Source of the DNA: Crassostrea angulata
Lineage: Eukaryota
Direction: 5' to 3'
DNA length: 64,000 nt
Assembly: GCF_025612915.1 (NCBI RefSeq)
Contig: NC_069114.1
Coordinates: forward strand, 49,578,639-49,642,638
Position numbers and translations under genes: made by a program. Shown piece after piece: positions 5,087 to 39,284 of this stretch (its first letter is position 1; every line of letters begins with the position of its first letter). The notes under the pieces were generated by a model. The model worked only from the letters and a program-made list of their open reading frames with translations, was not told the origin of the DNA and ran no database searches.

Positions 5087-5476
<390 letters not shown>

Positions 5477-14317: not shown

Positions 14318-14397
14318 CTGTAATGTGTGGATTTACAGTCTTATACATGCATACATAGGATACAAGACTAAATAAGTGTTAAAACTGGAGCAAGTAC

Positions 14398-14493
14398 CTG
14401 GTACGGTGTTGTCAAGGAAACAGGAAAGTATGGCACCCACCATGTTTGGGTTTCCTAGTAACATTTTCAGTACATCATCTACATCCGGATATC
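14398..14493 (-). CDS. SLC23 exon (GYPDVDDVLKMLLGNPNMVGAILSCFLDNTVP)
   Basis: tatatag acceptor, G|gtactt donor; matches human [30 protein letters not shown]. Confidence 0.85.
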
Positions 14494-14592
14494 CTATATA
14501 CAAAGACATTAGGGGTTTTATTTTGCTTAAACTTGACATGTACAACAAAATCACCGAATGTTTTAGTTCCATATCATATAATCAGATAATAC

Positions 14593-14866
14593 CTGTATCC
14601 ACCGTATTAGGATATCGCTCAATCCAGTGTGGCAGCATCAAGCCAACCAGCAGAGAGGTTCCGATGATGGCAGAGTTCCGAGTAGACGAGAGATCCACTG
14701 ACTGGAGATTGGAGAGAACTACCCCATTAAACATTCCGAACATGATGATGAGAGCGCCACCGAGCACGGGGTGGGGGATGGTGATGAACACGGCCGAAAA
14801 TTTACCAATAATTCCAAACAGGATGTAAACCAAGGACACGCACACAAACACGTGTCTGCTGGCGAC
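14593..14866 (-). CDS. SLC23 exon (VASRHVFVCVSLVYILFGIIGKFSAVFITIPHPVLGGALIIMFGMFNGVVLSNLQSVDLSSTRNSAIIGTSLLVGLMLPHWIERYPNTVDT)
   Basis: ccacag acceptor, G|gtatta donor; matches human [70 protein letters not shown]. Confidence 0.9.
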
Positions 14867-14989
14867 CTGTGGGGTGATCGTTAAAGAAAAGGTAGTAAAT
14901 AAAGTAAATACGGTCAATTTAAATTAGCCGATTGTTAATGAAAGGGTTACATTCAAGGTCATAACTTGAGCTGCATGTTCTTTATTTAC

Positions 14990-15243
14990 TTTAGTCAAAC
15001 CAATAGCGCCGATGTTCCCTCCGTATGTCGTAGTACCATGCCCACAACCAACGGCTCCAGACAGCGTGGTACACAGGCCCTCCACAGCTATCCCACGATT
15101 CACTGCGTGTGCAGGAGGAGGCGGGACACGGCACGTGGTGGCGCATGCGTAGTAATCTCCGATGGAGTCCAGAATGGAGACAATGGTGGCAATAAAGAAC
15201 CCCACAAAAGCACTGATGCTGAATCGAATCAGGCCAAACTGTC
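14990..15243 (-). CDS. SLC23 exon with NAT-family signature (..[59 protein letters not shown])
   Basis: ctag acceptor, AAA|gtaaat donor; near-identical to human [60 protein letters not shown]. Confidence 0.9.
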
Positions 15244-15331
15244 CTAGATAAAATACTCTTTTAAAATAAGCAACCATTTGGTAATGAGTTTTACTAAAGG
15301 ATAGAATGATTAAAATACATATGATAAAAAC

Positions 15332-15494
15332 CTGGGTAAGGGAACTGAAACCACTTGGCGTTTTTGATGACGTAGTTTCTGGTATCCGTTCTGGCATAAT
15401 ACAGTTTGTCGTTGACTGACGTAGCGCTGTCAAACACTCCGCACTCTGTCAGAACGAGGCTGAAGATCCAGCCAACCACAATGGCGATCAGAAT
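15332..15494 (-). CDS. SLC23 exon (ILIAIVVGWIFSLVLTECGVFDSATSVNDKLYYARTDTRNYVIKNAKWFQFPYP)
   Basis: aaaacag acceptor, CCAG|gttttt donor; matches human [53 protein letters not shown]. Confidence 0.8.
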
Positions 15495-15615
15495 CTGTTT
15501 TTAAAAACACTTGAGTTACATTTAGAGCTTAAAAATATCTCCAAAATACTACAAACGAGACATTCCCGGAAACAAGACAACTTGTGAGACCCAGTACTGA
15601 AAGAAAGGAACTTAC

Positions 15616-15736
15616 AGCAAACACCTGATGCAGAGGATATCTGATCACGTGACAAGATTTTTTCCTGGTCCATACAGGGATGGGCATGTTGTGTTTGGAC
15701 AGGTACAGGGACAGGATGATGGCGATAGCACAGGTC
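15616..15736 (-). CDS. SLC23 exon (TCAIAIILSLYLSKHNMPIPVWTRKKSCHVIRYPLHQVFA)
   Basis: ttgcag acceptor, GCT|gtaagt donor; matches human [39 protein letters not shown]. Confidence 0.8.
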
Positions 15737-16147
15737 CTGCAATTCAAGTCAACTAACCTAAGTACATCATGTATACTGGTCCGCGTTTGTGGTGTCACAA
15801 GTTATAATTGCTTATTGCTTGTGTATATGATACAATCGGAGACCGTACGATGAACATGGTGGATGATAAGCATATATCCACTGGTTTAGCCATTGTGTTG
15901 TGTAGAAACATGTATATACATTGAAGTCATGGCCACGTGTAAATTAAATACAAATGAGGAAATGAGGATCAGTAACGTCTTGCTCTTTTTATATACAAAT
16001 GCCAAAAATATATCTTATCATTGTAATTTAGAATAACAAGTCTATACATTATAATTTTTTATGAACTAGAAATTAGAGAGAATTAATTATTGTCACGTTT
16101 TGATAAATATAAATAAACAAAGCAAAATAATTAGTGACTATACAAAC

Positions 16148-16346
16148 ATGGACGAGATTCCCCAGTGAACTTGCGCGAACTTTGTGACGGATGTGACCAT
16201 GTATATTCCGATCAACAGAATTGTGGGTACTATGGTGACCGGTCCAATGAAGCGCAGCAGGACCCCGACCAATCCAGTGGCGCCGACCACAAAGTGGATC
16301 ACCCCGGCCAGCATCAGACTGCCCTGTAACTGTAGCCCAGAAACTG
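16148..16346 (-). CDS. SLC23 exon (SVSGLQLQGSLMLAGVIHFVVGATGLVGVLLRFIGPVTIVPTILLIGIYMVTSVTKFAQVHWGISSM)
   Basis: acceptor aaag|CAG..., donor AT|gtttgt; matches human [60 protein letters not shown]. Confidence 0.7.
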
Positions 16347-17441
16347 CTTTATGTATCATAAACATCAGTGTATTACTTTTTATAGCATTACATGGTTAAA
16401 ACTGCATCAGACTTCTCTGTAACGGCTCAGCTGGAATACTGCTAAATCGAACACTCCCAGAGTTAAAAGTGTATATGTGCAGGTATTGTTTACAACAGGC
16501 AGTGATATATTAGGAGAAAAATAATTAGCAAAAAACGACTCATTTATGATTAGAATTACACCAGCATTTGTGTCAATGAATTGTGTGTAATTTTTCATCC
16601 ATCAGACTATTTAACAAACATATTCTTTGTAAATACATAAGATTTGTTTAATTAAATAGACATCGTTTAAATTAATTTTTTGTTTGTAAGTAAAGGCCCT
16701 ATTACACCAGGTTGCTTTTCCACAGAGTTATCACAGCATTGTAAAATTTCTGGAAGCGACCGAGGCATTTCTATGTAGCCCACGCGGGGTGCGACTGCGC
16801 TCCTAAAGAATTTTACTTGCATGGCGATTGACAGTGCTTAGACTGAGCGCCCATTACGTGCGAGGAGTTTTCACCTCTGTCATAGTGTTGAATACACTTA
16901 CTTGCGTGCACAAGACTTTTTGTGACGCAGTGACGTCAAATCCAAAAGGACTCCTGGAATTCTCCATGCAAGCGCAATGGCGGCCACAGTGACCCCAATT
17001 GGTTTTACATCATGCTCCTCAGAACACAGATTCACGGCGCGTACTTTGTGCATGCTTAAAGTACGCGCCGTCGAATGTTGTTTTAGGTAACTCTACCGCG
17101 ACTAACGAAGATGCCGCTGTGTTGTTGCGCAGCTGTAAGAGACTCTATTGCATGCACCTTGGTGTTCTGCTCAATTCATGGGCGCAGCATGTACTTTAAG
17201 GACGCAGCCAAGGTGTAACAGGGGTTAAAAGGGTTACTGGTATTGTTCTTACTGTTTGTATATGATAAATAATGACGTCATCGTTACTGGTGTAGATAAG
17301 TTCTGTCGAGTTGGAAGTGGTGTTGAAATCTGAAAGCATAAAAAAATCTGTCGTAAAGACCAAAAAACACAAGATGTCGTTAAGACGAAGAGAGTAGATC
17401 TACGAGTAAAATTGTGATAAAGTGGTGGTCATTGTACTAAC

Positions 17442-17536: not shown

Positions 17537-17645
17537 CTGTATGTCAGAATGCAGGGATTATATCAATTATTAGAGTTCGAATATTATTTATTGTGTGGTG
17601 CCACATAGTCAGCTGTAGCTCCTTGGTACAGCGGTAATCTGTAAA
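17492..17645 (-). repeat. ~100-bp tandem duplication of SLC23 exon acceptor + first ~50 nt (pseudo-exon copy at 17592-17645 upstream of real exon 17442-17536)
   Basis: gtggtgccacatagtc(c/a)g(g/c)tgtagctccttggtacag(a/c)ggtaatctgta at 17497-17545 and 17592-17642. Confidence 0.8.
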
Positions 17646-17723
17646 AATTCATCACAATAACAGAATGCACTCTCTATATGAAGTATTTGTTGAAAAGAAG
17701 AGTATTGTGTCATGGATAACAAC

Positions 17724-17881
17724 CTTACGCCTATGGTAACCATGAGGAGCGTAGTAATCCCATTCATGAACAATGTGGAGCTCAGCAACCTCGACTTAAA
17801 GTCCTCGTCATGTTCTGCGCATGCGTAGTCAGCAACTAACAAGGATACTGCCAACGACGTTGAGAGAGACAATAGCGCTTG
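17724..17881 (-). CDS. SLC23 exon (QALLSLSTSLAVSLLVADYACAEHDEDFKSRLLSSTLFMNGITTLLMVTIGVR)
   Basis: tttcag acceptor; donor AAG|gttgtt chosen because it yields GVR+LPL continuity matching human TFGCRLPLFQ; matches SVCT2 [38 protein letters not shown]. Confidence 0.75.
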
Positions 17882-17960
17882 CTGAAATAACGGACCATCA
17901 TCATTAAATTAGGCATATTATTGTTATAATACAAAGATTTTTCACTAATTGTTAACTTAC

Positions 17961-18149
17961 TTGCATGGCAAAGAACAGCGTGAGATGGATGGGCGTGGCC
18001 TCACTGATTTTGTAGATCAGTGGGTTGTCCTCCATCTCGATTTTGGGGTCATCGTCTGGAGTCTTCTTTGTAGAGCCCTCTGAGGTCTGGTCAGTACAGC
18101 AATAAGGCTTAAATCCTCCATTATACTGCTGGTCGTTTTCTTCTGGGCT
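17961..18149 (-). CDS. SLC23 (nucleobase-ascorbate transporter/SVCT-like) 5' coding exon (..TPDDDPKIEMEDNPLIYKISEATPIHLTLFFAMQ); possible initiator ATG at 18035, or continues from an unseen upstream exon
   Basis: minus-strand ORF open from acceptor (tag at 18150-18152) to CAA|gtaagt donor (17959-17960); aligns to region just before QHYL motif of human SVCT2. Confidence 0.55.
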
Positions 18150-18519
18150 CTAGGTAAGACAATGTGAAATTAATACATCATTACAAATGTACAGAGTCTA
18201 TACTTTTCTAAACAAAGGTAAACCAGAAAGGTTGAATTATTATTACAATTACTGAACTTTTTGAAACTATGTTGATGTTCGATTTGACGGACCATTGCAT
18301 GTCTGTCGTTATGACGTCATAATCTTTTATCTTTTTGACACACTTTATTAGCTCAACTTAGACTCAATTTAGCTTTAAACACTGTGTCAGATAATTATGC
18401 CAGTGCCAATGTGGCACTTTTGCACCCGTCTAATGTGCATATATCGAAAAATTTAAATATGCCATATGATAGACCATTGCTGAAAGAGTTTACAACCACC
18501 TTTGTTAGCGTTGTATCTC

Positions 18520-19666
18520 ACCTGTCAGGTGGGTTGAAGTTTTACATAGGAATATATAGAGTAAATTTTTATAAAAATCTTCTTCTCAGAAACTAATCAG
18601 CCAGGAAAGCTGCAACTTGTGCCGAAGCATCTTCAGGTAGTGTAGATTCCAAGTTGTGAAAATCATGATCCCTGGGGGTAGGGTGGGGCACAATGGAGGG
18701 TCAAAGTTTTACATAGGAATATATAGAGTAAATATTTAAAATTCTTCATATCAGAAACTAATCAGCCAGGAAAGCTTATTTTTTTTTAAATCTTCTCAAA
18801 AACTAATCAGTCAGGAAAGCTGAAGCTTGTGTGGAAGCATCCTCAGGTAGTGTAGATTCCAAGTTGTGAAAATCATGACCTTGGGGGTCAGGTTGGGGCC
18901 ACAATGGGGGTCGAAGTTTTACATAGGAATATATAGAGTAAATATTTAAAATTCTTCATATCAGAAACTAATCAGCCAGGAAAGCTTATTTTTTTTAAAT
19001 CTTCTCAAAAACTAATCAGTCAGGAAAGCTGAAGCTTGTGTGGAAGCATCCTCAGGTAGTGTAGATTCCAAGTTGTGAAAATCATGACCTTGGGGGTCAG
19101 GTTGGGGCCACAATGGGGGTCGAGGTTTTACATAGGAATATATAGAGTTAATATTTAAAATTCTTCATATCAGAAACTAATCAGCCAGGAAAGCTGAAAC
19201 TTGTGTGGAAGTATCCTCAGGTAGTGTAGATTCAAAGTTGTGAAAATCATGATCCCTGTGGGTAGGATGGGGCCACATTAGTGGGGTGTTTAAGTTTTAC
19301 ATAGGAATATATAGAGTAAATCTTTAAAAATCTTCTTCTCAGAAACTAATCAGCCAGATGATTCTTTATAATTGTTAAGACTTTGGCTCCAGGACAATTT
19401 TTCGGCTTCACAAGAAGGTTCGGAGTTTAATGTAGCTTTATATCCCATATATAAACAATTGTTAAGGATCTTTTTGAGAACTGAAATACTCAACATGTGA
19501 TATGACTATAAAATCATCCTGTTAGAAAAGGGACTAATGATGATAAACATAAGAATATCCAGGGGGGAAAATGGATTTTATTTATACAGGATCAACATGT
19601 ATTATTGTACATTGTCCAGATTGTTTGTATTACGACTCCATTAAGCTGATTTTATTATACCTATTG

Positions 19667-19704
<38 letters not shown>
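18520..19704 (+). mobile_element. Helentron/HINE-like composite repeat copy 1: hairpin head (cacctgtcaggtg) + ~5 units of 167-210-bp satellite (contains AAGCTT) + 340-bp tail ending GGCCCATGGGCCTCTTGTT
   Basis: tandem units at 18541/18708/18918/...; tail palindrome GGCCCATGGGCC; same architecture as copies at 22240 and 29600. Confidence 0.5.
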
Positions 19705-19707
<3 letters not shown>

Positions 19708-21639
19708 AGTCTTGTCAGTATGGACAAGCAATGCGGATACCTGTAATTAATTATAGACGCCTTGACACTGGCATATGTTGTATGTAAACAAGACGGCATC
19801 GTCTGGTCTACACGACTATCAACTTTGTCAATTGAAGTGTCCAACAGGATCTGTACATTTAATTTCGAGATTCAGAAGCGAAATGTCTATGAAATATTTT
19901 CCATCCCTTTGATTGCCCTTTTTTAAAATGATGTCTACAATTTAAAACGATCACGCTATATACCGTGTCTCAATTTATGTACATGGTAATATGAGATATA
20001 CCTGTTATCAAGTAAAAGTACCAACCGGTTAAAGGACCTATTAATAACGGGTTTTTTGTAGAGGGGTGAAAGGGTCAACCATCAGCTTTAGAATTGTACG
20101 AGGGGTTGGTTTTTGTTGACATCTTATCAGATCTCTATAAGATCAGTGTTCATATACAATTTTTAAGACACAGCGCTGCCGTTGGACTGAAGGAAGATCC
20201 TGCAGTGCGTGACACAGTTTTTCAAACTTTGTAATGCTTAATTAAACGTGTCCTAGTTAATATGCAAAATATTATAAATACTACTACAGCCAGCTGATTG
20301 CCGCTCGTCGGCAATAAAGAGGCAAGTGTAGATTCGTAGCTGGTTATAACTTTAAAATGTAGATGTAAATAGAATACTTATAAAAGTATATATAAGTCCA
20401 TTCATCTCCCGCAATTGTCATCAAGTACCGTATACGTAAAAATTCCCGACCAAATAAAAGCAACAAAATCTCAACAATGAAAGCGGCCTCTTTGGGCATT
20501 TTCCTCAACGTTTACGTATACACATTCAAATTTATACACAGTTTTAATATAAGCGGACAGTGGTTGAATTGTTCGCCATCATGGAAATTCCTACCTGATT
20601 CCGTGGTACCGGGTCTTCCAGAAAGCCCGGATTACTGGATGCGTTCACACACTCGTGGTCAGGCCCGGGGGTGGGCGTAAACCTAAGAGGAATCACCGTC
20701 GCGTGTGCAGGCTCCATGTCTGTGCGTGGAACTGGGGGTCCGCACCAGTCCTCCGATCCAATGTGTGCCTCTCAACGCTCTGGTAATTTGACGGGTTTCA
20801 ATAAACCTTAATGCCGTTTATTATTCCTTTTTCTTTATTTTTTTCTTGTTTTGTTGACGCTCCCAAAAAGTTTTATTTTATTTACTTGCACAAGCTGGTG
20901 TCCTATTACTCAACCACTGCAGAAAATAGTTAATTATTTTGTTTACGTAATGCAAACGTTGACACACAACGCATATCCCTTCTTATTGACGCTTTATCAT
21001 AAAAATAAAATCAAAATTTGAACACTTGTTATTTGAATTTAAATCGAATATATTATTACAATTCTTCCAAAAGTATTGAGGAGAATTGTAAAAGAGCTCA
21101 TATACCCCACGCTCGTATATTTTATGACAAATATGCAAGTAACTGATCGGACTTAATGAAAATCCAATAGACTATTTAATCTCACAAGAAAAGGATATTT
21201 TGTTCCATTGAGTGAAAAACAATATATATAGTGTGAATATAGCGTCAGGATACTTTTTGTAGTAAATTATTTTTTAAAACGTCAAGAAGACAGGAAAAAA
21301 GTCGGCATACGGTGACTCTACGTACATGTACCTCGCGCTCTAAATAATATGCTGTCTTCAGAAGTAATATTTTGTATTGAAATTTTCAGCTCTGAATTTC
21401 AACAGGGTACTGACGTTTCGGTGTAATATTTTTGTCACTTTACGCCGAGTTTTTATGACTTTTGGATCAACCCTCGTATAATTTGCCACCTAACGATACA
21501 TTTGATTCAACTTAGATCTTACATAGTTCATTGATATCGTTTGGAGTAAGTGGTTTTGTATAAATATTGCGCAGTGGAATCATTCAACGAAACTAGGAAT
21601 ATTATAGATTGATATATATTATTAATTAAGTTTTTGCTC

Positions 21640-22200
21640 TTGTTAAAAAGTATATTGTTAACGTTATTTGTAGACAGATAAAATTGGATTATCATTCGTA
21701 CAACCGTTAAATATGGTGTTGCAGATAAAAATTATAGTATACTGATCGTTAATTAAAGTTAACGAATCCTTAACTATAGTCTACGAACCGTAAACTATAG
21801 TTAACTATAAACTATTGATAACTATAGTTTAGCGTCCGTAAACGATATTAACGCCGTTAACCTAAAAAAAAACCCACACATCTGTAACATATTTAAATCG
21901 ACCATCTACATGTTTGTTTCAGAAAACAACCATTGGCTATTGCAAAACATGAATTATCTGATAAATATAGTTTCACTATTTTGAAACTATGATTGACAAC
22001 TTTTAACTATATTTAACGAATGTAAATTATAGTTTACAGATATCAACAAAATCTATTGTTGACGTTATTGTATTTGCAGACAAATAAACTTAGATTATCA
22101 TACTTTAACATGTATAGTTTACAACCGTAAAATATAGTTTTACAGATGTTAACTATAGTTAACGAATGAACCTAATTTATAAAATGTGAAACTATGTTTA
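21640..22200. repeat. AT-rich region with ~110-bp direct repeats (21655-21770 / 22055-22170) and many short palindromes (taactatagttaac, gttaacgaa)
   Basis: read directly; immediately upstream of Helentron-like copy 2 head. Confidence 0.5.
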
Positions 22201-22239
22201 GCTCATTTTTCGGAATTTGGCGTGCCATATACCTTTCCT

Positions 22240-22240
22240 C

Positions 22241-22277
<37 letters not shown>

Positions 22278-24095
22278 AATTGGTCTTCGTCCGTCGTCGT
22301 GCGTCTGTGCGTCGTGCGTTAACAATTTTACATTTTTAACTTCTTCTTGAAAACTACCAGGCCAATCGTTACCATTTTTTATGTGAAGCATCTCTATGGT
22401 ACGAAGAATCTAAATTGTGAAATTCATGGCTCTACCACCCTTGGAGTGCCACGGGCGGGGCCAAATGCCAAAAAAGCCAAATTTTCAAAAATCTTCTTCT
22501 CTACTCACACGCATGTGAGGAAAAAACCGGTTGCATGGTTATGATGTCCATGAAGCCCTCTAACAAAATTGTGAAATTTATGGCCCCAGGGTCAGGGGTT
22601 CTGGCTTTAGGATGGGGCCAATATGGCCATATAGTAAAAATGTATTAAATCTTAGAAAATCTTCTTTTTTACTACCATATATATTTTTTAAAAACTAAAT
22701 GCATGATAATGATGTCCATGAAGCCCTCTACCTAAATTGTGAAATTTATGACCCCTGGGTCAGGGGTTCAGGATCTAGGGTGGAGCAAATATGGCCAAAG
22801 AGTAAAAATGTATTAAATCTTAGAAAATCTTCTTCTCTACTCCCATACATGTATATATTTGTTAAAAACTAAATGCATGATTATGATGTCTATGAGGCCC
22901 TCTATCATAATTGTGAAATTCATGACCCCTGGGTCAGGGGTTCAGGCTCTGGGGTGGGGCCAATGTGGCCAAATAGTAAAAATGTATTAAATCTTAGAAA
23001 ATCTTCTTCTCTACTCCCATATATATTTGTTAAAAACTAAATGCATGGTTATGATGTCCATGAGACCCTCTACCAAAATTGTAAAATACATGACCCCTAT
23101 GTTAGGTGTTCAGGCTCTAGGGTGGGGCCAATATGGCCATATAGTAAAACTGTTTTAAATCTTAAAAATCTTCTTCTCTACTCCCACACATGTGAGCAAA
23201 AAACTGAATACATGGTTATGATGTCCATGAGGGCCTCTACTAAAATTGTAAAATACATGACCCCTTTGTTAGGTGTTCAGGCTCTAGGGTGGGGCCAGTA
23301 TGGCCATATAGTAAAACTGTTTTAAATCTTTAAAAATCTTTTTCTCTACTCCCATCCATGTGAGCAAAAAACTGAATACATGGTTATGATGTCCATGAGG
23401 GCCTCTACTAAAATTATGAAATTCATGACCCCTTTGTTAGGTGTTCAGGCTCTAGGGTGGGGCCAATATGGCCATATAGTAAAACTGTTTTAAATCTTTA
23501 AAAATCTTCTTTTCTACTCCCACACATGTGGGCAAAAAACTGAATACATGGTTATGATATCAACAATCTCCTTTACCTAAATTGTGAAATTCATGGCCCC
23601 TTGGTCAGGGGTTCAGGACATGAAAGGGGGGGGGGGCGCAATATGGCAATATAGTGTTAATGCATATAATGTTTAACAATTTTCTTCTCTATTCTCACAC
23701 ACCTGTATTAAAAAAATGACTAATAATTATGTTTACTAGGAAGACCTCTACTGAAATTTAATTTTCATGTCCCCTCAAGGATGGGTTTTGACTCTAGGAC
23801 AGGGCCAAAATGGATGTATAGATGTTTATGCATATAACGTTAAAAATTATATTCTTTACTCCCACACACCTGAAAGGAAAACTGAATTCATGATTTTGTA
23901 GACCAGATCTTAGTTTTTCAACAAAATTATAGGTTTCACAGTTCTTTTTGAAATGTGGTCGTCATTACAAATTTATAATTTTTCTACTCCAGTATGAAAC
24001 CTAATTAATTAGATGCATATATGAGGCTCCGTGACAAGTTTGTGTATGGGATGCATGCTACTCAGGTGACCGTTAAGGCCAGTTGGCCTCTTGTT
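22240..24095 (+). mobile_element. Helentron/HINE-like composite repeat copy 2: 27-bp hairpin aggtcacctgagtcactcaggtgacct + ~7 x 175-bp satellite (22440-23600) + tail ending ggccagttggcctcttgtt
   Basis: head homologous to reverse complement of 31560-31790; tail terminus homologous to copy 1 terminus. Confidence 0.5.
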
Positions 24096-25363
24096 ATATG
24101 CAAAGACTCAATGGGGTGTTCTACATTAATCGTTTATTTTTTGTTAATTTTTAGAAATCTAAAATGGAACATGTGTACATGACTTTAAAGGAATTTCTAT
24201 CAAAAAAGTCAACTACCCCGCGGGGAAAGGAGGGGGGGGGGGGGGGGTCTTGTCCCCAAGCACCTCTGAATGTACCCGGTTTCGTTGTCTATATAATAAT
24301 ATAAGTTATAACTTGGGAGGCCTTGAATATTCCAGGCCCTTGTGGATTCCATCAAAAATAGCAGTTGCGTAATAACGGCAGCGCTGACAGGGTGGGACGT
24401 TACTGACGTCGTCGTGCGGCGTGTGAGCAGACAGTTTACCGCCCGCCTTTATCAACCCATTCACATGAAAGAGAACTCCCATCCTATTGAGATTCCATAT
24501 TTGACGACGTTACATTCATTATGGTCATCAGGTGAGCAAACAAACCTAGCCCCACATTGACCATCATGATTAACGCAATGCCATTGAACAACTTGCATTG
24601 CATATATTGCATAATTATATCGTTTAAATCATCTGGACGTCGTCATGTATCTCAAACTTTTAGGACAACGTTGTCATCTTTCTTCACATGTGCAGAACTT
24701 ATTCACAAGATGCAACGTTTTTACCTTGTTATGTACATGTATATCCTTTTTTCACTCTTTTACACAAAATCAATATCCGTCAATTTTTTGAAGGCCTTTA
24801 AAGGAAAATCGGGGAATGTAAACCGATAAATATTTCAGTATCAAAGCATGGGTCTCTGTGGAATGTCGATTGTATATGTTATAGAAATTCGTGTTGTTTT
24901 AATGATTAAAATAACATGCAAAATTACCTTGGCAACAGCCGGAATGAAAACAGTTTCCTCCTCAGAAGAGGACATTTCCACTGAGCACGTGATTTCAGTT
25001 TTGATCGTATCTCTTTTTCTCTCATTAAAACACAAAGTAGTACTTTATCTCAACACGTGGAAGGCCTGTTGTTATTGAAAACTAGCTCTCTCCTTATCAG
25101 TTGGGGACAACATGACTGTCCCCGCCGGCAAATTGCCTCTCAGATTACATATTTATTTAATAATTACAATATGAACGTTCATGTACCAACAAACATCTGC
25201 TACAATAGCACGAGATCATATACATGTACAATATTGCAAAAAGCCATTGGTGGGAACTTGTCAATTATTGTTTAAGATAAAACCAATTTAAATTAATTTT
25301 ATTTATATGTCAATCAATGAAGTAACCTTCAACTGTCTAAGATAGTAAATTATATAGACATAG

Positions 25364-25565
25364 GAACTTGCGCTTGTTTTGCAAAGTTAAACTAATGGAA
25401 TAAAGATTAATTCTTTATTCCATTAGTCTAACTTTGCAATAAAGATTAATTCTTTGAGTATTATGAGTACGTGATAATTTTGGTCTGGGTGTGGTCAAAT
25501 CCAATAGAGCCCGAAGGGCTTTATGATAGATTTGATCACACCCTGACCGAAATTATCACTTCATA
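25364..25565. repeat. Two adjacent near-perfect palindromes (25364-25440 and 25445-25565)
   Basis: gcaaagttaaactaatggaataaagattaat|attaatctttattccattagtctaactttgc ; gtgataattttggtctgggtgtggtcaaatc...gatttgatcacaccctgaccgaaattatcac. Confidence 0.7.
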
Positions 25566-27030
25566 ATATTCAAAGGCTGATCTTTTAAATATTATATATT
25601 TATATAATTTTTGGCAATTGTACAATTAATTATTTAAATATAAATAAGTAAACCCCGCTTGTGCCCAAATTATAAGTCATTTGAATTTATTGGACTGTAT
25701 AGTAAAAAATTATGTGTAGTGTTATTACGGACAAAGGCACTGAAAATGTAAATATATAACCATAATCCCTTTTTTTTTTGGCTTGTCAAGATTTCCTATA
25801 AGTCTAACACCCCCCCCCCCCCCATCAATTAAGCTTCAACTTATTCATGATCTAAAAAATGTGCAGGGATTATAGACTAGTTGATTCTCTAAAAAAAAAA
25901 AATAGAAACTGTTAACTCCTTCAAAGCTTAAGTCTTTAACATAAATTAAATACATGATGGATTTCTTTTTTAATAATTCATTCTTAGTAAAATCATCGAG
26001 CATGCAGTGAGTGTACAGAAAACAAACAAGATGGCTGATTATTACAAAAATCAAACATAAAGCCATGAGCAGACAAGTCAGAGTTCATTATGGCAGAGAT
26101 ATAAAAAAATGGACGGATTTACAAACATAGGTCAAATGTACATATTGATCAGCAAACAAAAACAGCACAAATATTTTTGCAAGCTTGAATGGATGAGCCA
26201 TAAATTATAGCTGTACATAATTTGTTTCCATATTTCTATTGCTGTAACACAAAAATAGTCATCAGTAAATGAAAGTATTCTTTGATGCTGGTTGATGAAA
26301 TTGTTCATGCTGTAAGTATTTTACGGATGAATTAAACAGACTCAACCATTTTATTTTGTAAATGATACTAAAACAAAACCTAGACAAAATGTATTGTAGT
26401 TGTTTATCCTAACCATTTAAAGAATGTTTCTTTGAAAAACTTGTAACCCGATTTGATAATTAGTCTCCTGTAGTTCAAACATCTAGAAAACAAAATAAAT
26501 ATTTCTTGCAATTCTGTATTACAAATTATTGTTCAATATTCTTGATAAAAATCAGATAAATAGCTTCCTGTGTCAAAGGATACAGTGGTGGCTTTCTAAC
26601 TTTATGTATACTATATAGCACTGTGAAGATAAGACCAACAATATGACAACAAACAAATTTCACAAAGACCAACAGAACATAAACATGGCAAGAGTTGCCG
26701 ACCTCTGTCTGTCGCACAGAGAGAAATGGAAGGTCAGTGATTGGTTAACTACTCTCCAGTTTACAATCTATGTTCTCCTTTAATACAATACAAAAACAAA
26801 AAGCTGATTTGTGAGGAATCTGATTACAATGAAGTCTGTTTCTCTGTTTAAAAATAAGGTTAACTACAACATCTTCTGTACTGGTGCCCTGTCACTACAG
26901 GTTGTCTAGTGGCCCCTCCCGTCCCCTCCCTAAAGGTTACAAGCTTGGTGGCCCCTCCTGTGCAGTGATTGAGTATTCCTGTTTAGTGCGAGTTCCGTGA
27001 GCCCTTGTTCACTCTGGTTCCGATTCCTTT

Positions 27031-27147
27031 TCACCGTCTGAATTGTCCCGTGGGTCGCATGGATTCAACACGACCCTGGAGGTCATCGATCCGGACGTCC
27101 TTCAGGTGAATCAGGTGTTCCAGCCGATGAATTTTTGCTTGTAAAAT
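27031..27147 (-). CDS. SPEF1: SPEF1-like A terminal exon (ILQAKIHRLEHLIHLKDVRIDDLQGRVESMRPTGQFRR*)
   Basis: ctgtaccag acceptor; coiled-coil matches human SPEF1 VLQMKVRRLEHLLQLKNVRIEDL; stop TGA at 27033-27031. Confidence 0.8.
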   Translation of the reverse strand: MLQAKIHRLEHLIHLKDVRIDDLQGRVESMRPTGQFRR

Positions 27148-27639
27148 CTGTACCAGATAAAACAAATGAATAATTAAATGAATGCTTTCATTTGATATAG
27201 ATATCAAATACCTGCCTATTTTACTTATATACTTCTATTTCTTCCCTTTTTTGGTCATCAATTTCTACCATTATAAAGCATTTTTTTTTTACCGTATTGA
27301 TATGAAATCCTTCAAGTTGGCATCTCTTATTCATTTTTCCCATCTTTTTGAATAATTTTTAAAATTATTAAGCCCATTTTCCTAATTCTGAATCCCCTAC
27401 CAATATATAATTTAGCTCCTTTTTCTAATTTTATAGACCCCAATCAATGCCTTTATTTAGCTCCTTTCCCTGATTTTATAGACCCTTGAAGACCTGTACT
27501 AATACCTTTACTGAGCCCTCCCTACACATTATAGACGCCTTCCAATACCTTTACTTAGCCCTTTCTCTGATTTGTAGACTCCTATCAATGCCTTTACTAA
27601 GCCCATTCCTCTATCTAACACACCTTTACCAATACCTCA

Positions 27640-28811
27640 AGTACCACTCCCTTTTATGAGTCCTTCCCTCTACCTTATACCCATGCCATTTCCTTTCAAA
27701 AGCCCCTTCATCTACCTTATACCCCTACCACTCCCCTTCATGAGCCTCTCCCTCTACCTTATACCCCTTCCACTCCCATTCATGAGCCTCTCCCTCTACC
27801 TTATACCCCTACCACTCCCCTTCATGAGCCTCTCCCTCTAAATTATACCCCTTCCACTCCTCTTCATGAGCCCCTCCCTCTACCTTATACCCCTACCACT
27901 CCCCTTCATGAGCCTCTCCCTCTACCTTATACCCCTACCACTCCCCTTCATGAGCCTCTCCCTCTACCTTATACCCCTACCACTCCCCTTCATGAGCCTC
28001 TCCCTCTAAATTATACCCCTTCCACTCCCCTTCATGAGCCCCTCCCTCTACCTTATACCCCTACAACTCCCCTTCATGAGCCTCTCTCTCTAAATTATAC
28101 CCTTACAACTCCCCTTCATGAGCCCCTCCCTCTAACTTATACCCTTACCACTTCCTTCATGAACCACTCCCTCTACCGTTTACCTCTACCACTTACCTTT
28201 ATGAGCATTAACCCCTCCTTTTAACTGGTAAGTCCTACCACACCCATTCAAGAGCCCCACCCTCTACCTTATACCCCTACCATTCCCATAAGGAGCCCTT
28301 CCCCCTACCTTATACCCCTACCACACCCCTTCACGAGCCCCTCCCCCCTACCTTATATCCCTACCACTCCCATTCATGAGCCCCTCCCTCTACCTTATAA
28401 CCCTACCATTCCCATAAGGAGCCCTTCCCCCTACCTTATACCCCTACCACACCCCTTCACGAGCCCCTTCCCCCTACCTTATACCCCTACCACACCCTTT
28501 CACGAGCCCCTCCCCCCTACCTTATACCCCTACCACACCCCTTCATGAGCCCCTCCCCCCACCTTATACCCCTACCACCCCATTCATGAGCCCTACCCCC
28601 ACCTTATACCCCTACCACTCCCCTTCATGAGCCCTACCCCCACCTTATACCCCTACCACCCCCATTCATGAGCCCTACCCCCACCTTATACCCCTACCAC
28701 ACCCTTTCATGAGCCCCTCCCCCCCACCTTATACCCCTACCACCCCCATTCATGAGCCCCTCCCCCTACCTTATACCCCTACCACACCCCTTCAGGAGCC
28801 CCTCCCCCTAC
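27640..28811. repeat. 42-bp minisatellite, ~28 copies (ccttatacccctaccactccccttcatgagcc(c)ctccctcta), in last intron of SPEF1-like A, abutting exon 5 donor
   Basis: period 42 read directly; minus-strand unit contains ATAAGgtagggggagg resembling exon 5 donor ATAAAG|gtagggggagg. Confidence 0.85.
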
Positions 28812-28938
28812 CTTTATGGTCTCATCCTTAGCAAGACACTCTTGGACTTTCTCCTCGAACACAAGGCGGGGTACATGGTCGGCCTCGGAGACATTGCGTA
28901 AAATCTTCTGCCTGGGTTGGTTTGTGTAGTACTCGTGC
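28812..28938 (-). CDS. SPEF1: SPEF1-like A exon 5 (HEYYTNQPRQKILRNVSEADHVPRLVFEEKVQECLAKDETIK)
   Basis: cag acceptor, AAG|gtaggggg donor; paralogous to B exon 5 (..GDHVSRLLFEEKVQESLSKDETIK). Confidence 0.75.
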
Positions 28939-29596
28939 CTGTGAACACCCACACAAAAATCAGACGACAAATCGACTGAAACAGCACTGATAGTACTAGG
29001 CAGAATTTGTATTGACTTGGTTGTCAGAATTTTAATTTTTTATTTTACAATCTAGTAAGTGTGAAACCCAATCCATCAAACCAATCAATTAATAAACAAA
29101 CAAACAAGCATCCTTCTCCATGCTGTTAGGCAGCCCTGTCCATACTCCAAATCAATTTAGTACATTTGATTGTTTCCTCTTGCTTTAATCATTTTTCAAT
29201 TCTTTAGCTCTGTTATGGTAATAATGATTTATAGTTCGATAGGATTGTATTCATTTTTGCATGCAGTGTGTAAAATGATAATTAGAATATCGCATGTATT
29301 TACTAACTATCTAAAATACTATTAGTGTATGCACATTACAGTATAGAAGTATATGTTTAACATTCAGTATGATATACAGCTAAGTACATGCATAACAAAG
29401 GAATATAATATATGTGTATCTTGGTATAAATATACATGTATATGGGATATTTTTTTTTGCTAGATAACCATGACCATGCATAATCTATGTGCAAGTGTTG
29501 TACTGCCAAGTTACAATCATTATATTTTGAAATATACAGGTATAATTATATATATATATGCAGGGTTGTCTCTAAAAATTGAAGTAGAAGGGAGAA

Positions 29597-29599
<3 letters not shown>

Positions 29600-29634
<35 letters not shown>

Positions 29635-31748
29635 GAACAATAGGTATGATAAAGTCAGCTTAATGGAGTCATAATACAAACAATCAGGATAATGTACAAT
29701 AATACATGTAGATCCTGTATAAATAAAATCCATTTTTCCCCCTTGGAACTCGGATAGCCCTGATTGCTGCCAATATTTACAAGAGCAGACTTTAATGACC
29801 GCTTCTGCACATATATAGGGACTCAAAATTACGCAGGCAGGGATGACCGCACACCTACACAACTCAACAGGTACCAATGTTAACGCAAGTAGGGATAAAC
29901 AACTCAACAGGTACCAACGTTAACACAAGTAGGGATAACCGCACACTTGCGCCAACAGCTCAACCTAACGCAAGCAGGCAGTGCCGCACACTTGCACTAG
30001 AAAGGCCAGAACACCAGCAGGGAGGACCATACACAAGTGCTCCGCCCCAACCACCACAAGCAGGTATGACCGCACACTTGTATTAATGCGATACAGGGCA
30101 GGAATGACCGCACACTCTGTATCATAGGTTAGAAAACACGAAAATTAGATAGAGCAGGGGTGTCCACCCACTCAATCTATCCATACCTGTTCAAGCTTAA
30201 CCCCAAACAATCGATAATCTTAATGAAATAGACACTATCCCTATATATGTGCCGGCCTAAAATAATTCATAGTATCTAAAAATTGGAAATCAAAAATAAA
30301 CAAACTTATCCGGCCTTACCCAAAACTACTTATGCAGAACAACTTATATACATTGAATATTCATTATTGTATAAAAATAATCATCACAATAATTGGTTAA
30401 CAGTGGATGCATTAATTAAAATAATCAAGAATCAATAAATCAAGGGCAAAAACTCAATACAGTAATACAAAAAGAGTCTAATGAAAAAATAGCTGCCTGT
30501 TTCAATTTTATAGTCATATCACATGTTGAGTATTGCAGTTCTCAAAAAGATCCTTTACAATTGTTTATATATGGGATATTTAGCTGCATCAAACTCTGAA
30601 CCTTCTTGTGAGGCCAAAGAATTGTCCTGGAGCCAAAGTCTTAACAATTATAAAGAATCATCTTGCTGATTAGTTTCTGAGAAGAAGATTTTTAAAGATT
30701 TACTCTATATATTTCTATGAAAAATTTTAACACCCCCCCCCCCATGTGGCCTCACCCTACCCCAAGGGATCATGATTTTCACAACTTTGAATCTACACTA
30801 CCTGAGGATGCTTCCACACAAGTTTCAGCTTTCCTGGCTGTTTAGTTTCTGAGAAGAAGATTTTTAAAGATTTACGCTATATATTCCTATGTAAAACTTC
30901 GACCCCCAATTGTGGCCCCACCCTACCCCCGGGGGTCATGAATTTCACAACTTTGAATCTACACTACCTGAGGATGCTTCCACACAAGTTTCAGCTTTCC
31001 TGGCTGTTTAGTTTCTGAGAAGAAGATTTTTAAAGATTTACACTATAAATTCCTATGTAAAACTTCGACCCCCCATTGTGGCCCTACCCTACCCCCGGGG
31101 GTCATGAATTTCACAACTTTGAATCTACACTACCTGAGGATGCTTCCACACAAGTTTCAGCTTTCCTGGCTGTTTGGTTTCTGAGAAGAAGATTTTTAAA
31201 GATTTACTCTATATATTCCAATGTAAAACTTCGACCCCCCCATTGTGGCTCCACCCTACCCCTGGGGGTCATGAATTTCACAACTTTGAATCTACACTAC
31301 CTGAGGATGCTTCCACACAAGTTTCAGCTTTCCTGGCTGTTTAGTTTCTGAGGAGAAGATTTTTAAAGATTTACGCTATATATTCCTATGTAAAACTTCG
31401 ACCCCCCATTGTGGCCCTACCCTACCCCCGGGGGTCATGAATTTCACAACTTTGAATCTACACTACCTGAGGATGCTTCCACACAAGTTTCAGCATTCCT
31501 GGCTTTCTGGTTCTTGAGAAGAAAATTTTTGAAAATATCTCGAAATTTTTCATTAATTTCTAATTATCTCCCCTTGAAAACGGGTGTGGCCCTTAATTTT
31601 CACAACTTTGAATCCCCTTTGCCTAAGGATGATTTGTGCCAAGTTTGGTTGAAATTGGCCTTGTAGTTCTTGAGAAGATGTTGAAAATGTGAAAAGTTTA
31701 CGGACAGACGGACGGACAGACGGACGACAGACAAAATGTGATCAGAAT

Positions 31749-31786
<38 letters not shown>

Positions 31787-31790
31787 AGAA
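29600..31790 (-). mobile_element. Helentron/HINE-like composite repeat copy 3 (inverted relative to copy 1), with ~750-bp internal insertion (29745-30490); lies in intron 4 of SPEF1-like A
   Basis: 29600-29760 and 30480-31500 are reverse complements of 19360-19704 and 18533-19360; hairpin agctcacttgagc..gctcaggtgagct at 31749-31779. Confidence 0.5.
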
Positions 31791-33323
31791 GGGGGCTTAT
31801 AGCTAGTTGAAATGCAATACCGGTAATAGCCGGGTAATTACGTCACTTTAGGCAGGGGAATTCCCTGCCTACCGGGTCTTAGAGACAACCCTGTATATGG
31901 TAACATTCAAAACTCTGAGTATTTTAAGAAAAGAAATCGATTGCTTTGATTGCAATAAATATACACACAAGGCAAAGTAAAGTAAGTAAAACAGCAAATG
32001 CACAGAGAGGTGTTTGTAACACAGCAGCATATGTTATAGATATGCATGAAGAAATCTTGTCATAGGACATCTCCCTGACTTATACCTTGATAATTTATCT
32101 AAAGTTATCACTTCCTTGTTTTCAGCAGCAAGCCGAGTAAAATACCTGTAAATCAGCACACAAAGTTATACCAACACCGTATACAGAAAGTGATAAATTC
32201 ACTTCACTGCTAATGACACAGCGAAGCAACCTACAGCGCCCTTGTTCATGCTGTTATGTCTAGAGCATGCATATTCTACAGCACATATATGCCAACTATA
32301 CCTAAACAGTTCATTATAAAATCCAGCATGATTAAGTGACACTTTTTGAATCCTAAATATCAATATAGGATACATTTCAGCTAAAAAGCTAATGCTATAT
32401 TGTGAGGTTCTCACCAATAATGGTCAAATATGTATCTTATTAATATAGTTATAACATTCAAATTTAATATGGTAATTGGTATCAGTGTCGTAGCTAGACC
32501 AGAATCGAAGTGCATGCTTAAAATGCCAGTGGGTCCAGGACGGAGCCTGATGGGGGCCCAGGGGGCGAAGGCCCAGGAAGCTCATGAATTCTGATGATTT
32601 TTAACACTAACACTCATCGCAGAAATTGAAAGGAATGCTCACTATTTAAGCATTTTTAGGCACTTAAAATTGTTTTGGTTATAGTTTAGGCATAAAATCA
32701 CAAAACTTATTAAAAGAAGAAAAAAACTTTTGACACTTGTTTTTGACCCCAGCTTTTATTCTTAAGTTCATTTTCACCTAGTTTATGCTAATGAATATCT
32801 CAATAAAGCTGTGATATTCTATTTGGGGGGGGGGATTTAAAATGATGTGCTTTATTAGATACATGCATTGTGTACTGTTATTTAATAATTATGATACTGT
32901 AAGACCACATTGCGTGTCTATATTTGGTACTTAAGATGTCTTTGTTTAGCATTGATTCCGGATAAAGTAGGACTGGGTGACGGAAACCGTTAAAGAGACC
33001 TTAATATATGTACTTGAAGTTTTTTCCTTTTTCCCCCAAATGATGTGCATGCTCAGGCATATAAGCATACATGGTAGCTACGCCACTGGGTATGATGGAA
33101 ATGCAACAGGAATTCCATGGCATATACTCTTGAGAAAAATCCAAAATCTCTCTTTCACTAAATGTATTTCAACAATTATAGGGAATCAAAGATATATTCA
33201 ATGAAAGCCTTATGGTACATTTTGAACCATTCTGCAGAAAAATAGTACCTTATATGTTTATACAATAGGATTTTTTTTATTGAAGTATATATGAGAACCA
33301 GTGTGAAAGTGAATGGTACTCAC

Positions 33324-39148: not shown

Positions 39149-39284
39149 ATGGATAATTACAAGTCAAATGGAACAAGTATGGCTGAATTCGACGACGCGG
39201 AATTGGAAGAATTATACAACTGGGTGGACAGTATACCACTCAGCAGGCCAAAGAAAAACATAGCTAGAGATTTTTCTGATGGAG
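39149..39284 (+). CDS. SPEF1: SPEF1-like paralog B exon 1 (MDNYKSNGTSMAEFDDAELEELYNWVDSIPLSRPKKNIARDFSDG)
   Basis: ATG at 39149; G|gtaaga donor; matches SPEF1 CH-domain N-terminus. Confidence 0.8.

What the first reader, a model, noticed from the sequence alone, without database searches (positions are those of the whole stretch)
18520..31790. Helentron/HINE-like elements carrying ~167-bp HindIII-site satellite arrays, two copies forming a 10-kb inverted pair
- All three copies share the same architecture: a 5' hairpin (ggtcacctgagtcactcaggtgacc or variants) followed by TAAAAAG.GAAGG, then a tandem array of 167-210-bp units containing AAGCTT, then a tail ending in palindrome GGCCCATGGGCC + TCTTGTT.
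- The termini abut host T's (cttgtt|t.., cttgtt|a..), consistent with Helentron-type insertion at T/T rather than a cut-and-paste TSD.
- The unit length and HindIII site recall oyster Cg170-type satellites, which are known to be carried by Helentron-like elements.
- Copy 1 (plus) lies 370 bp upstream of the SLC23 5' exon. Copy 3 (minus) lies inside intron 4 of SPEF1-like A. The inverted pair could mediate inversion of the intervening 10 kb.
Basis: partly seen in the sequence, partly recalled or inferred. Interest (0 to 1): 0.55.

Follow-up and report, generated by a model that had tools for sequence, protein, structure and literature searches.

The report
Known oyster satellite-carrying Helentron (HINE) elements

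Summary
Three non-coding elements are present: copy 1 (+, about 18501-19704), copy 2 (+, 22241-24095) and copy 3 (-, 31784-29600). Each has a 5' T-run, an 11-12 nt subterminal inverted repeat with a nearby complementary repeat (a hairpin), a central tandem array, a 3' subterminal repeat, a short GGCC...GGCC palindrome and the terminus CTCTTGTT.

The monomers of copies 1 and 3 are 92-96% identical to the Crassostrea gigas CgiSat01b (Cg170/HindIII) consensus. They are 87-96% identical to published CL1 arrays of Cg_HINE_1 (Repbase Helitron-N2_CGi). Copy 2 is a related element whose 168-bp unit is only 52-62% identical to Cg170.

More than 120 unrelated metagenome contigs carry the same 19-nt 3' end. 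Homology always stops at CTCTTGTT, and the next base is T in 62% of cases. This fixes the ends and fits Helentron-type insertion next to T.

Copies 1 and 3 are a tail-to-tail pair 9.9 kb apart. They are independent insertions, because homology ends at the element termini.

- HindIII sites occur only in two variant 209/210-bp units of copy 1.
- The "GAAGG" motif is flank, not element.
- Copy 1 lacks the microsatellite head.

Inversion between the pair is untested speculation. Verdict: interpretation supported, element already known, low interest.

The parts
18501..19704 (+). HINE copy 1: a deletion derivative of the Cg_HINE_1 type, about 1.2 kb. The 5' limit is uncertain within 18501-18516.
   Evidence: The tail and post-array regions are 94% identical to copy 3. 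The last 60 nt are 95% identical to copy 3.
18517..18533 (+). Copy 1 5' subTIR plus complementary repeat, CTCACCTG t CAGGTGgG, fused directly to the array. There is no microsatellite.
   Evidence: Read from the sequence. The hairpin is weak: -3.7 kcal/mol, z -1.65.
18533..19357 (+). Copy 1 array: Cg170-type monomers of 167, 210, 209 and 167 nt plus a partial one. The two long units carry a 42-nt internal duplication and all four HindIII sites.
   Evidence: (units 18780-18986 and 18989-19195 are 99% identical).
19670..19704 (+). Copy 1 3' end: subTIR CTCAGGTGAGC (19670-19680), palindrome GGCCCATGGGCC (19686-19697), terminus TCTTGTT (to 19704). The next base is T.
22241..24095 (+). HINE copy 2: a related family, 1855 bp.
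   Evidence: Its head aligns with the copy 3 head (75% over 138 nt). Its tail motif was found.
22247..22271 (+). Copy 2 5' subTIR plus IR, GGTCACCTGAGT c ACTCAGGTGACC, preceded by TTTTTA (22241-22246).
   Evidence: Hairpin -13.5 kcal/mol, z -6.9.
22284..22319 (+). Copy 2 degenerate GTC-type microsatellite.
   Evidence: Read from the sequence. It aligns with the copy 3 microsatellite.
22480..23905 (+). Copy 2 array: 6.7 units of 168 bp (alternating variants, 335-bp period), then two diverged units.
   Evidence: The units are 52-62% identical to the Cg170 type and share boxes with it.
24060..24095 (+). Copy 2 3' end: subTIR ACTCAGGTGACC (24060-24071), palindrome GGCCAGTTGGCC (24077-24088), TCTTGTT (to 24095). 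The next base is A.
29600..31784 (-). HINE copy 3: a full-length element of the Cg_HINE_1 type, 2185 bp.
31750..31784 (-). Copy 3 5' end: TTTTTAG (31784-31778), subTIR GCTCACCTGAGC (31778-31767), IR GCTCAAGTGAGC (31761-31750).
   Evidence: Hairpin -12.5 kcal/mol, z -5.0. The boundary is set by the alignment with independent copies.
31701..31732 (-). Copy 3 (GTCY)n microsatellite.
   Evidence: This is the motif class reported for Cg_HINE_1 (PMC7492417).
31535..31678 (-). Copy 3 head-proximal single degenerate monomer. Its relatives form 155-161-bp arrays in other HINEs.
   Evidence: 80% identical to the arrays in L008 and L118, but only 60% to the element's own Cg170 unit.
30662..31534 (-). Copy 3 array: 5.2 Cg170/CgiSat01b monomers of 166-167 bp.
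   Evidence: 96.4% identical to CgiSat01b.
29744..30504 (-). A 761-bp internal segment present in copy 3 but represented by an unrelated 46 nt in copy 1 (19515-19560). Whether this is an insertion or a deletion is unresolved.
29600..29635 (-). Copy 3 3' end: subTIR CCTCAGGTGAGC (29635-29624), palindrome GGCCCATGGGCC (29618-29607), TCTTGTT (to 29600). The next base is T.
29561..29575 (+). One arm of a 15-nt perfect inverted repeat, CAGGGTTGTCTCTAA, that brackets copy 3. It is probably a host MITE into which the HINE inserted.
   Evidence: Exactly 2 matches in the window against 0.08 expected.
31879..31893 (-). The other arm of the CAGGGTTGTCTCTAA inverted repeat.

Best explanation
The region contains three independent insertions of non-autonomous Helentrons (HINEs) of the oyster Cg_HINE group. 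Copies 1 and 3 belong to the Cg170/CL1-carrying family (Cg_HINE_1, Repbase Helitron-N2_CGi). Copy 2 belongs to a related family with a diverged 168-bp monomer.

Inferred mechanism, from what is known of Helitron/Helentron elements:
- A Rep/helicase(-endonuclease) protein encoded elsewhere by an autonomous Helentron recognises the 5' T-run plus subTIR hairpin.
- It also recognises the 3' subTIR, GGCC palindrome and CTCTTGTT terminus.
- It mobilises the DNA between them by rolling-circle ('peel-and-paste') transposition.
- It inserts the element next to T in T-rich DNA without a target-site duplication.
- The internal satellite array travels as cargo. Afterwards it changes locally by unequal exchange or slippage; the 99%-identical pair of 209/210-bp units in copy 1 is an example.

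What is shown here: the anatomy, the exact ends, the family identity of the monomers and the independence of the insertions. What is inferred: the transposition chemistry and the trans-acting partner.
For: - Anatomy was read directly from the sequence.
- The tail motif occurs 3 times against 0 expected.
- The 5' hairpins have z -5 to -7 in copies 2 and 3.
- The ends are fixed by independent copies. In 122 occurrences of GGCCCATGGGCCTCTTGTT on at least 120 metagenome contigs, similarity always stops after CTCTTGTT. The next base is T in 76/122, against 34% T in the background.
- Heads in L001, L009 and L056 share TTTTTAG+CTCACCTGAG with unrelated upstream flanks.
- The monomers are 96.4% and 92.3% identical to the CgiSat01b consensus and 87-96% to CL1 arrays from the Cg_HINE paper's Table S1.
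- The (GTCY)n microsatellite matches what is reported for Cg_HINE_1.
- Homology between copies 1 and 3 ends at the terminus, both arrays end at the same monomer position and the last 60 nt are 95% identical.
- No ORF of 95 aa or more lies in any copy.
- The published definitions of HINE and Cg_HINE match feature by feature.
Against: - No autonomous partner with these ends is known (the Cg_HINE authors could not find one). None was found in the fetched loci.
- No empty site or alternative haplotype could be retrieved, so absence of a TSD rests on the flanks alone.
- Copy 3 is flanked by a recurring 9-mer, CCCTTCTAC, abutting the 5' end and lying 7 nt beyond the 3' end. This is unexplained.
- The LF/RF consensus sequences of Cg_HINE_1 and the Repbase entries are not available as text, so membership rests on monomers, microsatellite class and architecture.
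- The 5' end of copy 1 is degenerate.
- The 3' flank base of copy 2 is A.
- The 3' palindrome is too short to stand out energetically (z about 0).
Confidence: 0.92

Rival explanations
2. Copies 1 and 3 are the two arms of an inverted segmental duplication, and the arrays are ordinary Cg170 satellite blocks rather than transposon cargo.
For: The shared non-array segments are 91-94% identical and lie in inverted orientation 9.9 kb apart.
Against: Similarity stops exactly at CTCTTGTT(T) on the 3' side and at the array or hairpin on the 5' side. The flanks are unrelated. The internal structures differ: 761 nt against 46 nt, with and without a microsatellite head, and different monomer variants. 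The same head and tail modules occur at many unrelated loci.
Confidence: 0.02
3. They are canonical Helitron non-autonomous elements, as their Repbase names (Helitron-N*_CGi) suggest.
For: The Repbase labels are quoted in the Cg_HINE paper. There is a 3' hairpin close to the end and no TSD.
Against: Canonical Helitrons start with TC, end with CTRR, lack inverted repeats and insert between A and T. These elements start with TTTTTAG, end with CTTGTT, have subTIRs and abut T.
Confidence: 0.02

Closest known systems
Cg_HINE_1 (Repbase Helitron-N2_CGi) of Crassostrea gigas; Vojvoda Zeljko et al. 2020, PMC7492417
   Same: Shared features are the 5' subTIR plus IR, a (GTCY)n microsatellite, a variable spacer, an array of about 167-bp CL1 (Cg170-family) monomers, a right flank with subTIR plus palindrome, T-rich ends and no TSD. 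The window monomers are 87-96% identical to published CL1 arrays. The length of copy 3 (2185 bp) is close to the 2310-bp Repbase entry.
   Different: None of substance for copy 3. Copy 1 is a shortened derivative with no microsatellite or spacer, 46 nt in place of 761 nt, and two 209/210-bp variant monomers. The LF/RF consensus could not be compared directly.
Cg170 / HindIII satellite DNA family (CgiSat01b; PMC8268682)
   Same: The unit is 166-167 bp. Identity to the CgiSat01b consensus is 96.4% for copy 3 and 92.3% for copy 1.
   Different: Here the arrays are short (4-5 monomers) and embedded in a transposon, not long heterochromatic arrays. Most monomers lack the HindIII site.
Other group-1 Cg_HINEs (Cg_HINE_4, Cg_HINE_10_13; Helitron-N2e/N2C_CGi)
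   Same: Copy 2 shares head and tail substructures with copy 3. It has a 168-bp monomer that keeps the conserved boxes. Its main array is followed by two diverged units, as in the two-array Cg_HINE_10_13.
   Different: The subfamily could not be assigned. The copy 2 unit has no 11-17-mer match in the 52 CgiSat consensus sequences, and the relevant cluster sequences are not held as text.
pearl (CvA etc.), DTC84 and MgE elements of bivalves, with BIV160 satellite
   Same: They share the modular plan of flank, microsatellite, about 160-bp repeats and flank. The head-proximal monomer of copy 3 is 80% identical to the arrayed units of HINEs on metagenome contigs L008 and L118, which share the same termini.
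   Different: The species and monomer subfamilies differ.
DINE-1 of Drosophila and HINE-Mo of mites (Thomas et al. 2014, PMC4067079)
   Same: The architecture is the same: subTIRs, an IR near the 5' subTIR, a microsatellite, central repeats, a 3' stem-loop, strings of T at the boundaries and TT-type insertion.
   Different: There is no sequence similarity. The 5' subTIR lies 7 nt from the end (2-4 nt in mites) and the 3' subTIR starts 36 nt from the end (38-60 nt in mites).

Membership tests
HINE (non-autonomous Helentron) | 11-15 nt subterminal inverted repeats near both ends | tested here: met
   Copy 3: GCTCACCTGAGC / CCTCAGGTGAGC, 11 of 12 complementary. Copy 2: GGTCACCTGAGT / ACTCAGGTGACC, 12 of 12. 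Copy 1: CTCACCTG / CAGGTGAG, 8 nt.
HINE (non-autonomous Helentron) | Short inverted repeat complementary to the 5' subTIR a few nt downstream | tested here: met
   The spacers are 1 nt (copies 1 and 2) and 5 nt (copy 3). The hairpins have z -6.9, -5.0 and -1.65.
HINE (non-autonomous Helentron) | Short palindrome between the 3' subTIR and the 3' terminus | tested here: met
   GGCCCATGGGCC or GGCCAGTTGGCC lies 7 nt from the end in all three copies. Its sequence is conserved on at least 120 independent contigs, although its folding energy is not distinctive.
HINE (non-autonomous Helentron) | T-strings at the boundaries, insertion at TT or T-rich sites, no target-site duplication | tested here: inconclusive
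   The 5' end is TTTTTAG and the 3' end is ...GTT. The next base is T in 2 of 3 window copies and in 76 of 122 related ends, against 34% background. No TSD is visible at the termini. No empty site was available, and copy 3 has an unexplained nearby 9-mer repeat.
HINE (non-autonomous Helentron) | No coding capacity; microsatellite and central tandem repeats often present | tested here: met
   No ORF of 95 aa or more. GTC-type microsatellites are present in copies 2 and 3. Arrays are present in all three.
HINE (non-autonomous Helentron) | An autonomous Helentron (Rep/helicase/endonuclease) sharing the termini | not testable with these tools
   No Rep/Hel ORF lies in the window or upstream of the 122 related 3' ends. 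The published work also failed to find the partner.
Cg_HINE_1 / Helitron-N2_CGi | Central repeats belong to cluster CL1 (167 bp, clustered at 70% similarity or more) | tested here: met
   Full-length monomer alignments give 87-96% identity to six CL1 arrays copied from Table S1 and 96.4% / 92.3% to CgiSat01b.
Cg_HINE_1 / Helitron-N2_CGi | Left and right flank consensus (more than 80% within the family) | not testable with these tools
   The consensus sequences exist only in a figure and in Repbase. Indirect support comes from the microsatellite class GTCY, a shared array-edge monomer variant with array C28644, and a monomer remnant in the left flank as described in PMC5139131.
Thomas et al. 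family/subfamily rule for Helentrons | [quoted passage not shown] | tested here: met
   Copies 1 and 3 are 95% identical over the last 60 nt, so they are the same subfamily. Copy 2 against copy 3 gives 62%, and only 9 contiguous identical subTIR nt, so it is a different family under this rule.
Canonical Helitron | 5'-TC ... CTRR-3' ends, no inverted repeats, insertion between A and T | tested here: not met
   The ends are TTTTTAG ... CTCTTGTT, subTIRs are present and the flanks are T-biased.
Cg170/HindIII satellite DNA | A unit of about 166-170 bp similar to the consensus, with the diagnostic HindIII site | tested here: met
   Unit length and identity are met. The HindIII site is present in only two variant monomers of copy 1.

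The most novel reading that the evidence does not exclude
The tail-to-tail pair (copies 1 and 3) might act as a recombination substrate. That would give a segregating 9.9-kb inversion, flipping copy 2, a 42-bp minisatellite and the 3' exons of a SPEF1-like gene relative to the SLC23 promoter region. Nothing here supports this: identity is 88-94% and the longest perfect match is 49 bp. Nothing excludes it either, because no second haplotype could be retrieved.
Probability: 0.03. Interest if true: 0.4.

Novelty: already known. Interest (0 to 1): 0.12.

Why it matters
The region is a textbook local example of how Helentron-derived elements scatter satellite-like arrays through gene-rich oyster DNA. 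Here one copy lies about 370 bp upstream of an SLC23 transporter gene's first coding exon and another lies inside a SPEF1-like gene. For annotation, the 13-kb region should be masked as Cg_HINE / Helitron-N2-type repeats and not treated as a new feature. The only general point added is that the 19-nt 3' terminus and the TTTTTAG+subTIR head recur, with sharp boundaries, on many unrelated metagenome contigs with different cargo. That is a handy signature for finding such elements, and possibly their still-unknown autonomous partner.

Tried and rejected
- Species identification by exact-protein look-ups failed. The window ORFs 50516-52771, 14582-14917, 19762-19926 and 19671-19844 are not on record.
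- The protein homology search gave only partial hits. The best was a 111-aa Logan ORF at 98% identity, whose 2.6-kb contig (L121) is 96% identical to the window. The run accession is in no held paper. The organism is therefore inferred only from the satellite identity: Crassostrea, most likely gigas.
- No alternative haplotype or empty site was obtained, so the inversion and TSD questions stay open.
- A search for an autonomous Helentron upstream of 122 related 3' ends found no Rep/helicase ORF, because the contigs are too short.
- Assigning copy 2 to a subfamily failed. Its unit has no k-mer match in the 52 CgiSat consensus sequences, the CL2-13 part of Table S1 is cut off, and the Ostreidae satellitome paper has no held supplements.
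- The 46 nt of copy 1 have no significant similarity to the 761-nt segment of copy 3 (best local score 11), so insertion against deletion is undecided. The 2310-bp length of the Repbase entry mildly favours deletion in copy 1.
- tRNA and Rfam scans of the window found nothing.
- In one search, the third query contained 21 residues that I appended from memory. That row should be ignored; one search repeats it with window-derived residues only.

Full report
**Observation**

Tandem Repeats Finder and the repeat finder show three arrays in the finding's interval:
- 18581-19357, with periods of 209 and 165;
- 22479-23758, with periods of 168 and 335;
- 30665-31530, with a period of 166.

There is extensive inverted similarity between the first and third arrays and between their downstream regions. 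Region 19283-19514 matches 30505-30736 at 94%, and 19561-19705 matches 29599-29743 at 94%.

Reading the sequence shows the same modular plan three times. The tail pattern GGCC-N(2-8)-GGCCTCTTGTT occurs exactly three times in 64 kb, at the three predicted places, against none in 100 shuffles.

**Anatomy of copy 3 (minus strand, 31784-29600, 2185 bp)**

Copy 3 is the most complete. In order, it contains:
- TTTTTAG;
- the subTIR GCTCACCTGAGC;
- a 5-nt spacer;
- the complementary repeat GCTCAAGTGAGC;
- a (GTCY)n microsatellite at 31732-31701;
- one degenerate monomer;
- 5.2 monomers of 166-167 bp;
- a 157-nt post-array segment;
- a 761-nt segment;
- a 144-nt tail ending in CCTCAGGTGAGC-gatgt-GGCCCATGGGCC-TCTTGTT.

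**Anatomy of copy 2 (plus strand, 22241-24095, 1855 bp)**

Copy 2 contains:
- TTTTTA;
- the perfect palindrome GGTCACCTGAGT-c-ACTCAGGTGACC;
- a degenerate GTC-type microsatellite;
- one degenerate monomer;
- 6.7 units of 168 bp plus two diverged units;
- a tail ending in ACTCAGGTGACC-gttaa-GGCCAGTTGGCC-TCTTGTT.

**Anatomy of copy 1 (plus strand, about 18501-19704)**

Copy 1 has only a short hairpin, CTCACCTG-t-CAGGTGgG, fused directly to the array. It has no microsatellite. It has 46 unrelated nucleotides where copy 3 has 761. Its tail is 95% identical to that of copy 3 over the last 60 nt.

**Folding and coding capacity**

As single-stranded DNA, the 5' hairpins of copies 2 and 3 are far more stable than shuffles (z -6.9 and -5.0). 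The hairpin of copy 1 is weak. The 3' palindromes are too short to stand out energetically. No copy has an ORF of 95 aa or more.

**Where the elements really end**

In all 122 occurrences the similarity among copies stops immediately after CTCTTGTT. The next base is T in 76, A in 22, C in 13 and G in 11, against 34% T in the surrounding flanks.

Fourteen of these ends also share the window's CAGGTGAGC-GATGT motif. Three complete heads on those contigs (L001, L009, L056) align with copies 2 and 3 from TTTTTAG onward and have unrelated sequence upstream.

The 5' terminus is therefore the T-run. These features match the published description of Helentron and HINE ends: strings of 2-5 T at the boundaries that belong to the element, and insertion within TT.

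**What the repeats are**

The published C. gigas satellite consensus CgiSat01b (Data S1 of PMC8268682) is 96.4% identical to a copy 3 monomer and 92.3% identical to a 167-nt monomer of copy 1.

Six CL1 arrays from Supplementary Table S1 of the Cg_HINE paper align with the window monomers over their full length at 87-96%. CL1 is the central repeat of Cg_HINE_1. Its flanks equal Repbase Helitron-N2_CGi (2310 bp), and it is a subfamily of the Cg170/HindIII satellite.

Several further details agree with the published descriptions:
- the GTCY-type microsatellite;
- the monomer remnant in the left flank;
- the identical array-edge position in copies 1 and 3;
- an edge-monomer variant shared with published array C28644.

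The window is thus from a Crassostrea oyster, most likely C. gigas. I could not prove the species.

The copy 2 unit is only 52-62% identical to the Cg170 type. It keeps the same length, register and conserved boxes (ATCTTCTTCTC; AATTGTGAAAT.CATGACCCC; TAAATCTT). Its head aligns with that of copy 3 over the first 190 nt or so. It is a related group-1-like Cg_HINE of a different family. Its exact name could not be determined.

- HindIII sites occur only at 18772, 18823, 18982 and 19032. These lie in two 209/210-bp monomers of copy 1 that carry a 42-nt internal duplication. The two monomers are 99% identical to each other, so this is a recent local duplication within the array.
- The arrays of copies 2 and 3 have no HindIII site.
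- Copy 1 lacks the microsatellite head.

**Relationship of the inverted pair**

Copies 1 and 3 are convergent (tail to tail), with 9895 bp between their 3' ends. Their similarity ends at the terminal CTCTTGTT(T) and their flanks are unrelated. They are therefore separate insertions of one subfamily and not an inverted segmental duplication.

The best colinear alignment is 520 columns at 91%, and the longest perfect match is 49 nt. This makes homologous recombination between them possible in principle but unpromising. No other haplotype could be obtained to test it.

**Context**

Minus-strand SLC23-type exons lie at 14.4-18.15 kb:
- The exons at 14.4-15.4 kb are 68% identical to a Tegillarca SLC23 protein (PF00860).
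- The most upstream coding exons, at 17612-18149, match the start of the PF00860 profile at E 1e-5. The score of 24.8 bits is just under the 27-bit cut-off.

Copy 1 therefore sits about 370 bp upstream of that exon, as stated.

SPEF1-like CH_2-domain exons lie at 34.5-38.6 kb on the minus strand (E 2.5e-36 for my inferred splice product). A coiled-coil-like exon lies at about 27.1 kb on the same strand. This places copy 3 inside an intron of that gene. I did not verify the intron number.

Copy 3 is also bracketed by a perfect 15-nt inverted repeat, CAGGGTTGTCTCTAA (2 matches against 0.08 expected), with CATATA on both outer sides. The HINE probably inserted into a small MITE. This agrees with the published remark that Cg_HINEs often sit in other transposons.

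**Mechanism**

Shown here:
- conserved, asymmetric termini with sharp boundaries;
- a T-biased flank;
- no terminal duplication;
- no coding capacity;
- an array inherited as cargo, with the same edge and the same orientation in both copies;
- array change after insertion.

Inferred from established knowledge of Helitron and Helentron elements (PMC4067079, PMC7492417): a Rep/helicase-endonuclease from an autonomous Helentron acts in trans on the 5' subTIR hairpin and on the 3' subTIR, palindrome and terminus. It copies or peels the element as single-stranded or circular DNA and inserts it at T-rich sites. The partner of the Cg_HINEs is still unidentified in the literature. I did not find it either.

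**Comparison, novelty and score**

Every testable defining feature of HINEs is met. Those of canonical Helitrons are not. The monomer criterion for Cg_HINE_1 is met, while its flank consensus could not be compared directly.

This is a known element family in a genome where it makes up a measurable fraction of the assembly: 7,151 arrays in clusters CL1-13, or 0.85%. Gene-proximal and intronic copies have been reported before.

I rate it as already known, with interest 0.12. The residual oddities are the 9-mer CCCTTCTAC on both sides of copy 3 and the 761-nt against 46-nt difference. They are recorded as unexplained but do not change the verdict.

Noticed in passing
window 29561-29575 and 31879-31893: A perfect 15-nt inverted repeat, CAGGGTTGTCTCTAA (hAT-like CAGGG start), brackets HINE copy 3, with CATATA on both outer sides. 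It is probably a roughly 150-bp MITE that was the insertion target. There is no second copy in the window or in the 120 fetched loci.
   Followed up: partly
window 31785-31793 and 29584-29592: The 9-mer CCCTTCTAC abuts the 5' end of copy 3 and recurs 7 nt beyond its 3' end (loosely a 16-17-nt direct repeat). Helentrons should make no target duplication. It may be an internal repeat of the host MITE. This is unexplained.
   Followed up: partly
window 27497-28814: A 42-bp minisatellite of about 28 copies at 85% identity (consensus TACCACTCCCCTTCATGAGCCTCTCCCTCTACCTTATACCCC) lies between HINE copies 2 and 3, inside the SPEF1-like gene region.
   Followed up: no
window 50516-53387 (minus strand): Two adjacent ORFs of 223 aa (Exo_endo_phos_2, E 1.2e-7) and 751 aa (RVT_1, E 9e-41) form a largely intact non-LTR retrotransposon.
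   Followed up: partly
window 34.5-41 kb: Several sets of SPEF1-like CH_2-domain exons lie on both strands (for example 38395-38637 minus and 39131-39310 plus, head to head). They are a cluster of paralogues.
   Followed up: partly
window 55716-55826; 46831-46858; 46936-46964; 55405-55430: There is a 111-nt poly-C run and three poly-G runs of 26-29 nt. They may be assembly or sequencing artefacts, or homopolymer tracts.
   Followed up: no
window 31535-31678; loci L008:217-744 and L118:1-447: The single degenerate monomer in the head of copy 3 is 80% identical to the 155-161-bp arrayed unit of HINEs on metagenome contigs that share the same termini. It is only 60% identical to the element's own Cg170 unit. 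The same backbone therefore carries different amplified monomers in different hosts.
   Followed up: partly
loci L002-L120 (JAAUYG01 contigs): Most metagenome hits belong to another HINE-like family (…AAGCAGAGCGTCAA-GGCCCATGGGCCTCTTGTT) with an extra long palindrome and often 144-bp arrays. It shares only the last 19 nt with the oyster elements. The host organism is unknown.
   Followed up: no
window 5093-5359 and 8548-8851: Two further short tandem arrays (81 bp x 3.3 at 98%; 44 bp x 7 at 96%) are unrelated to the HINE monomers.
   Followed up: no
locus L121 (Logan SRR6063115) against window 13761-16595: A 2.6-kb contig covering SLC23 exons and introns is 96% identical over 2 kb and 89% over 0.5 kb. 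It is either a divergent haplotype or a sister species, so the window's own assembly is apparently not in the protein collection.
   Followed up: partly
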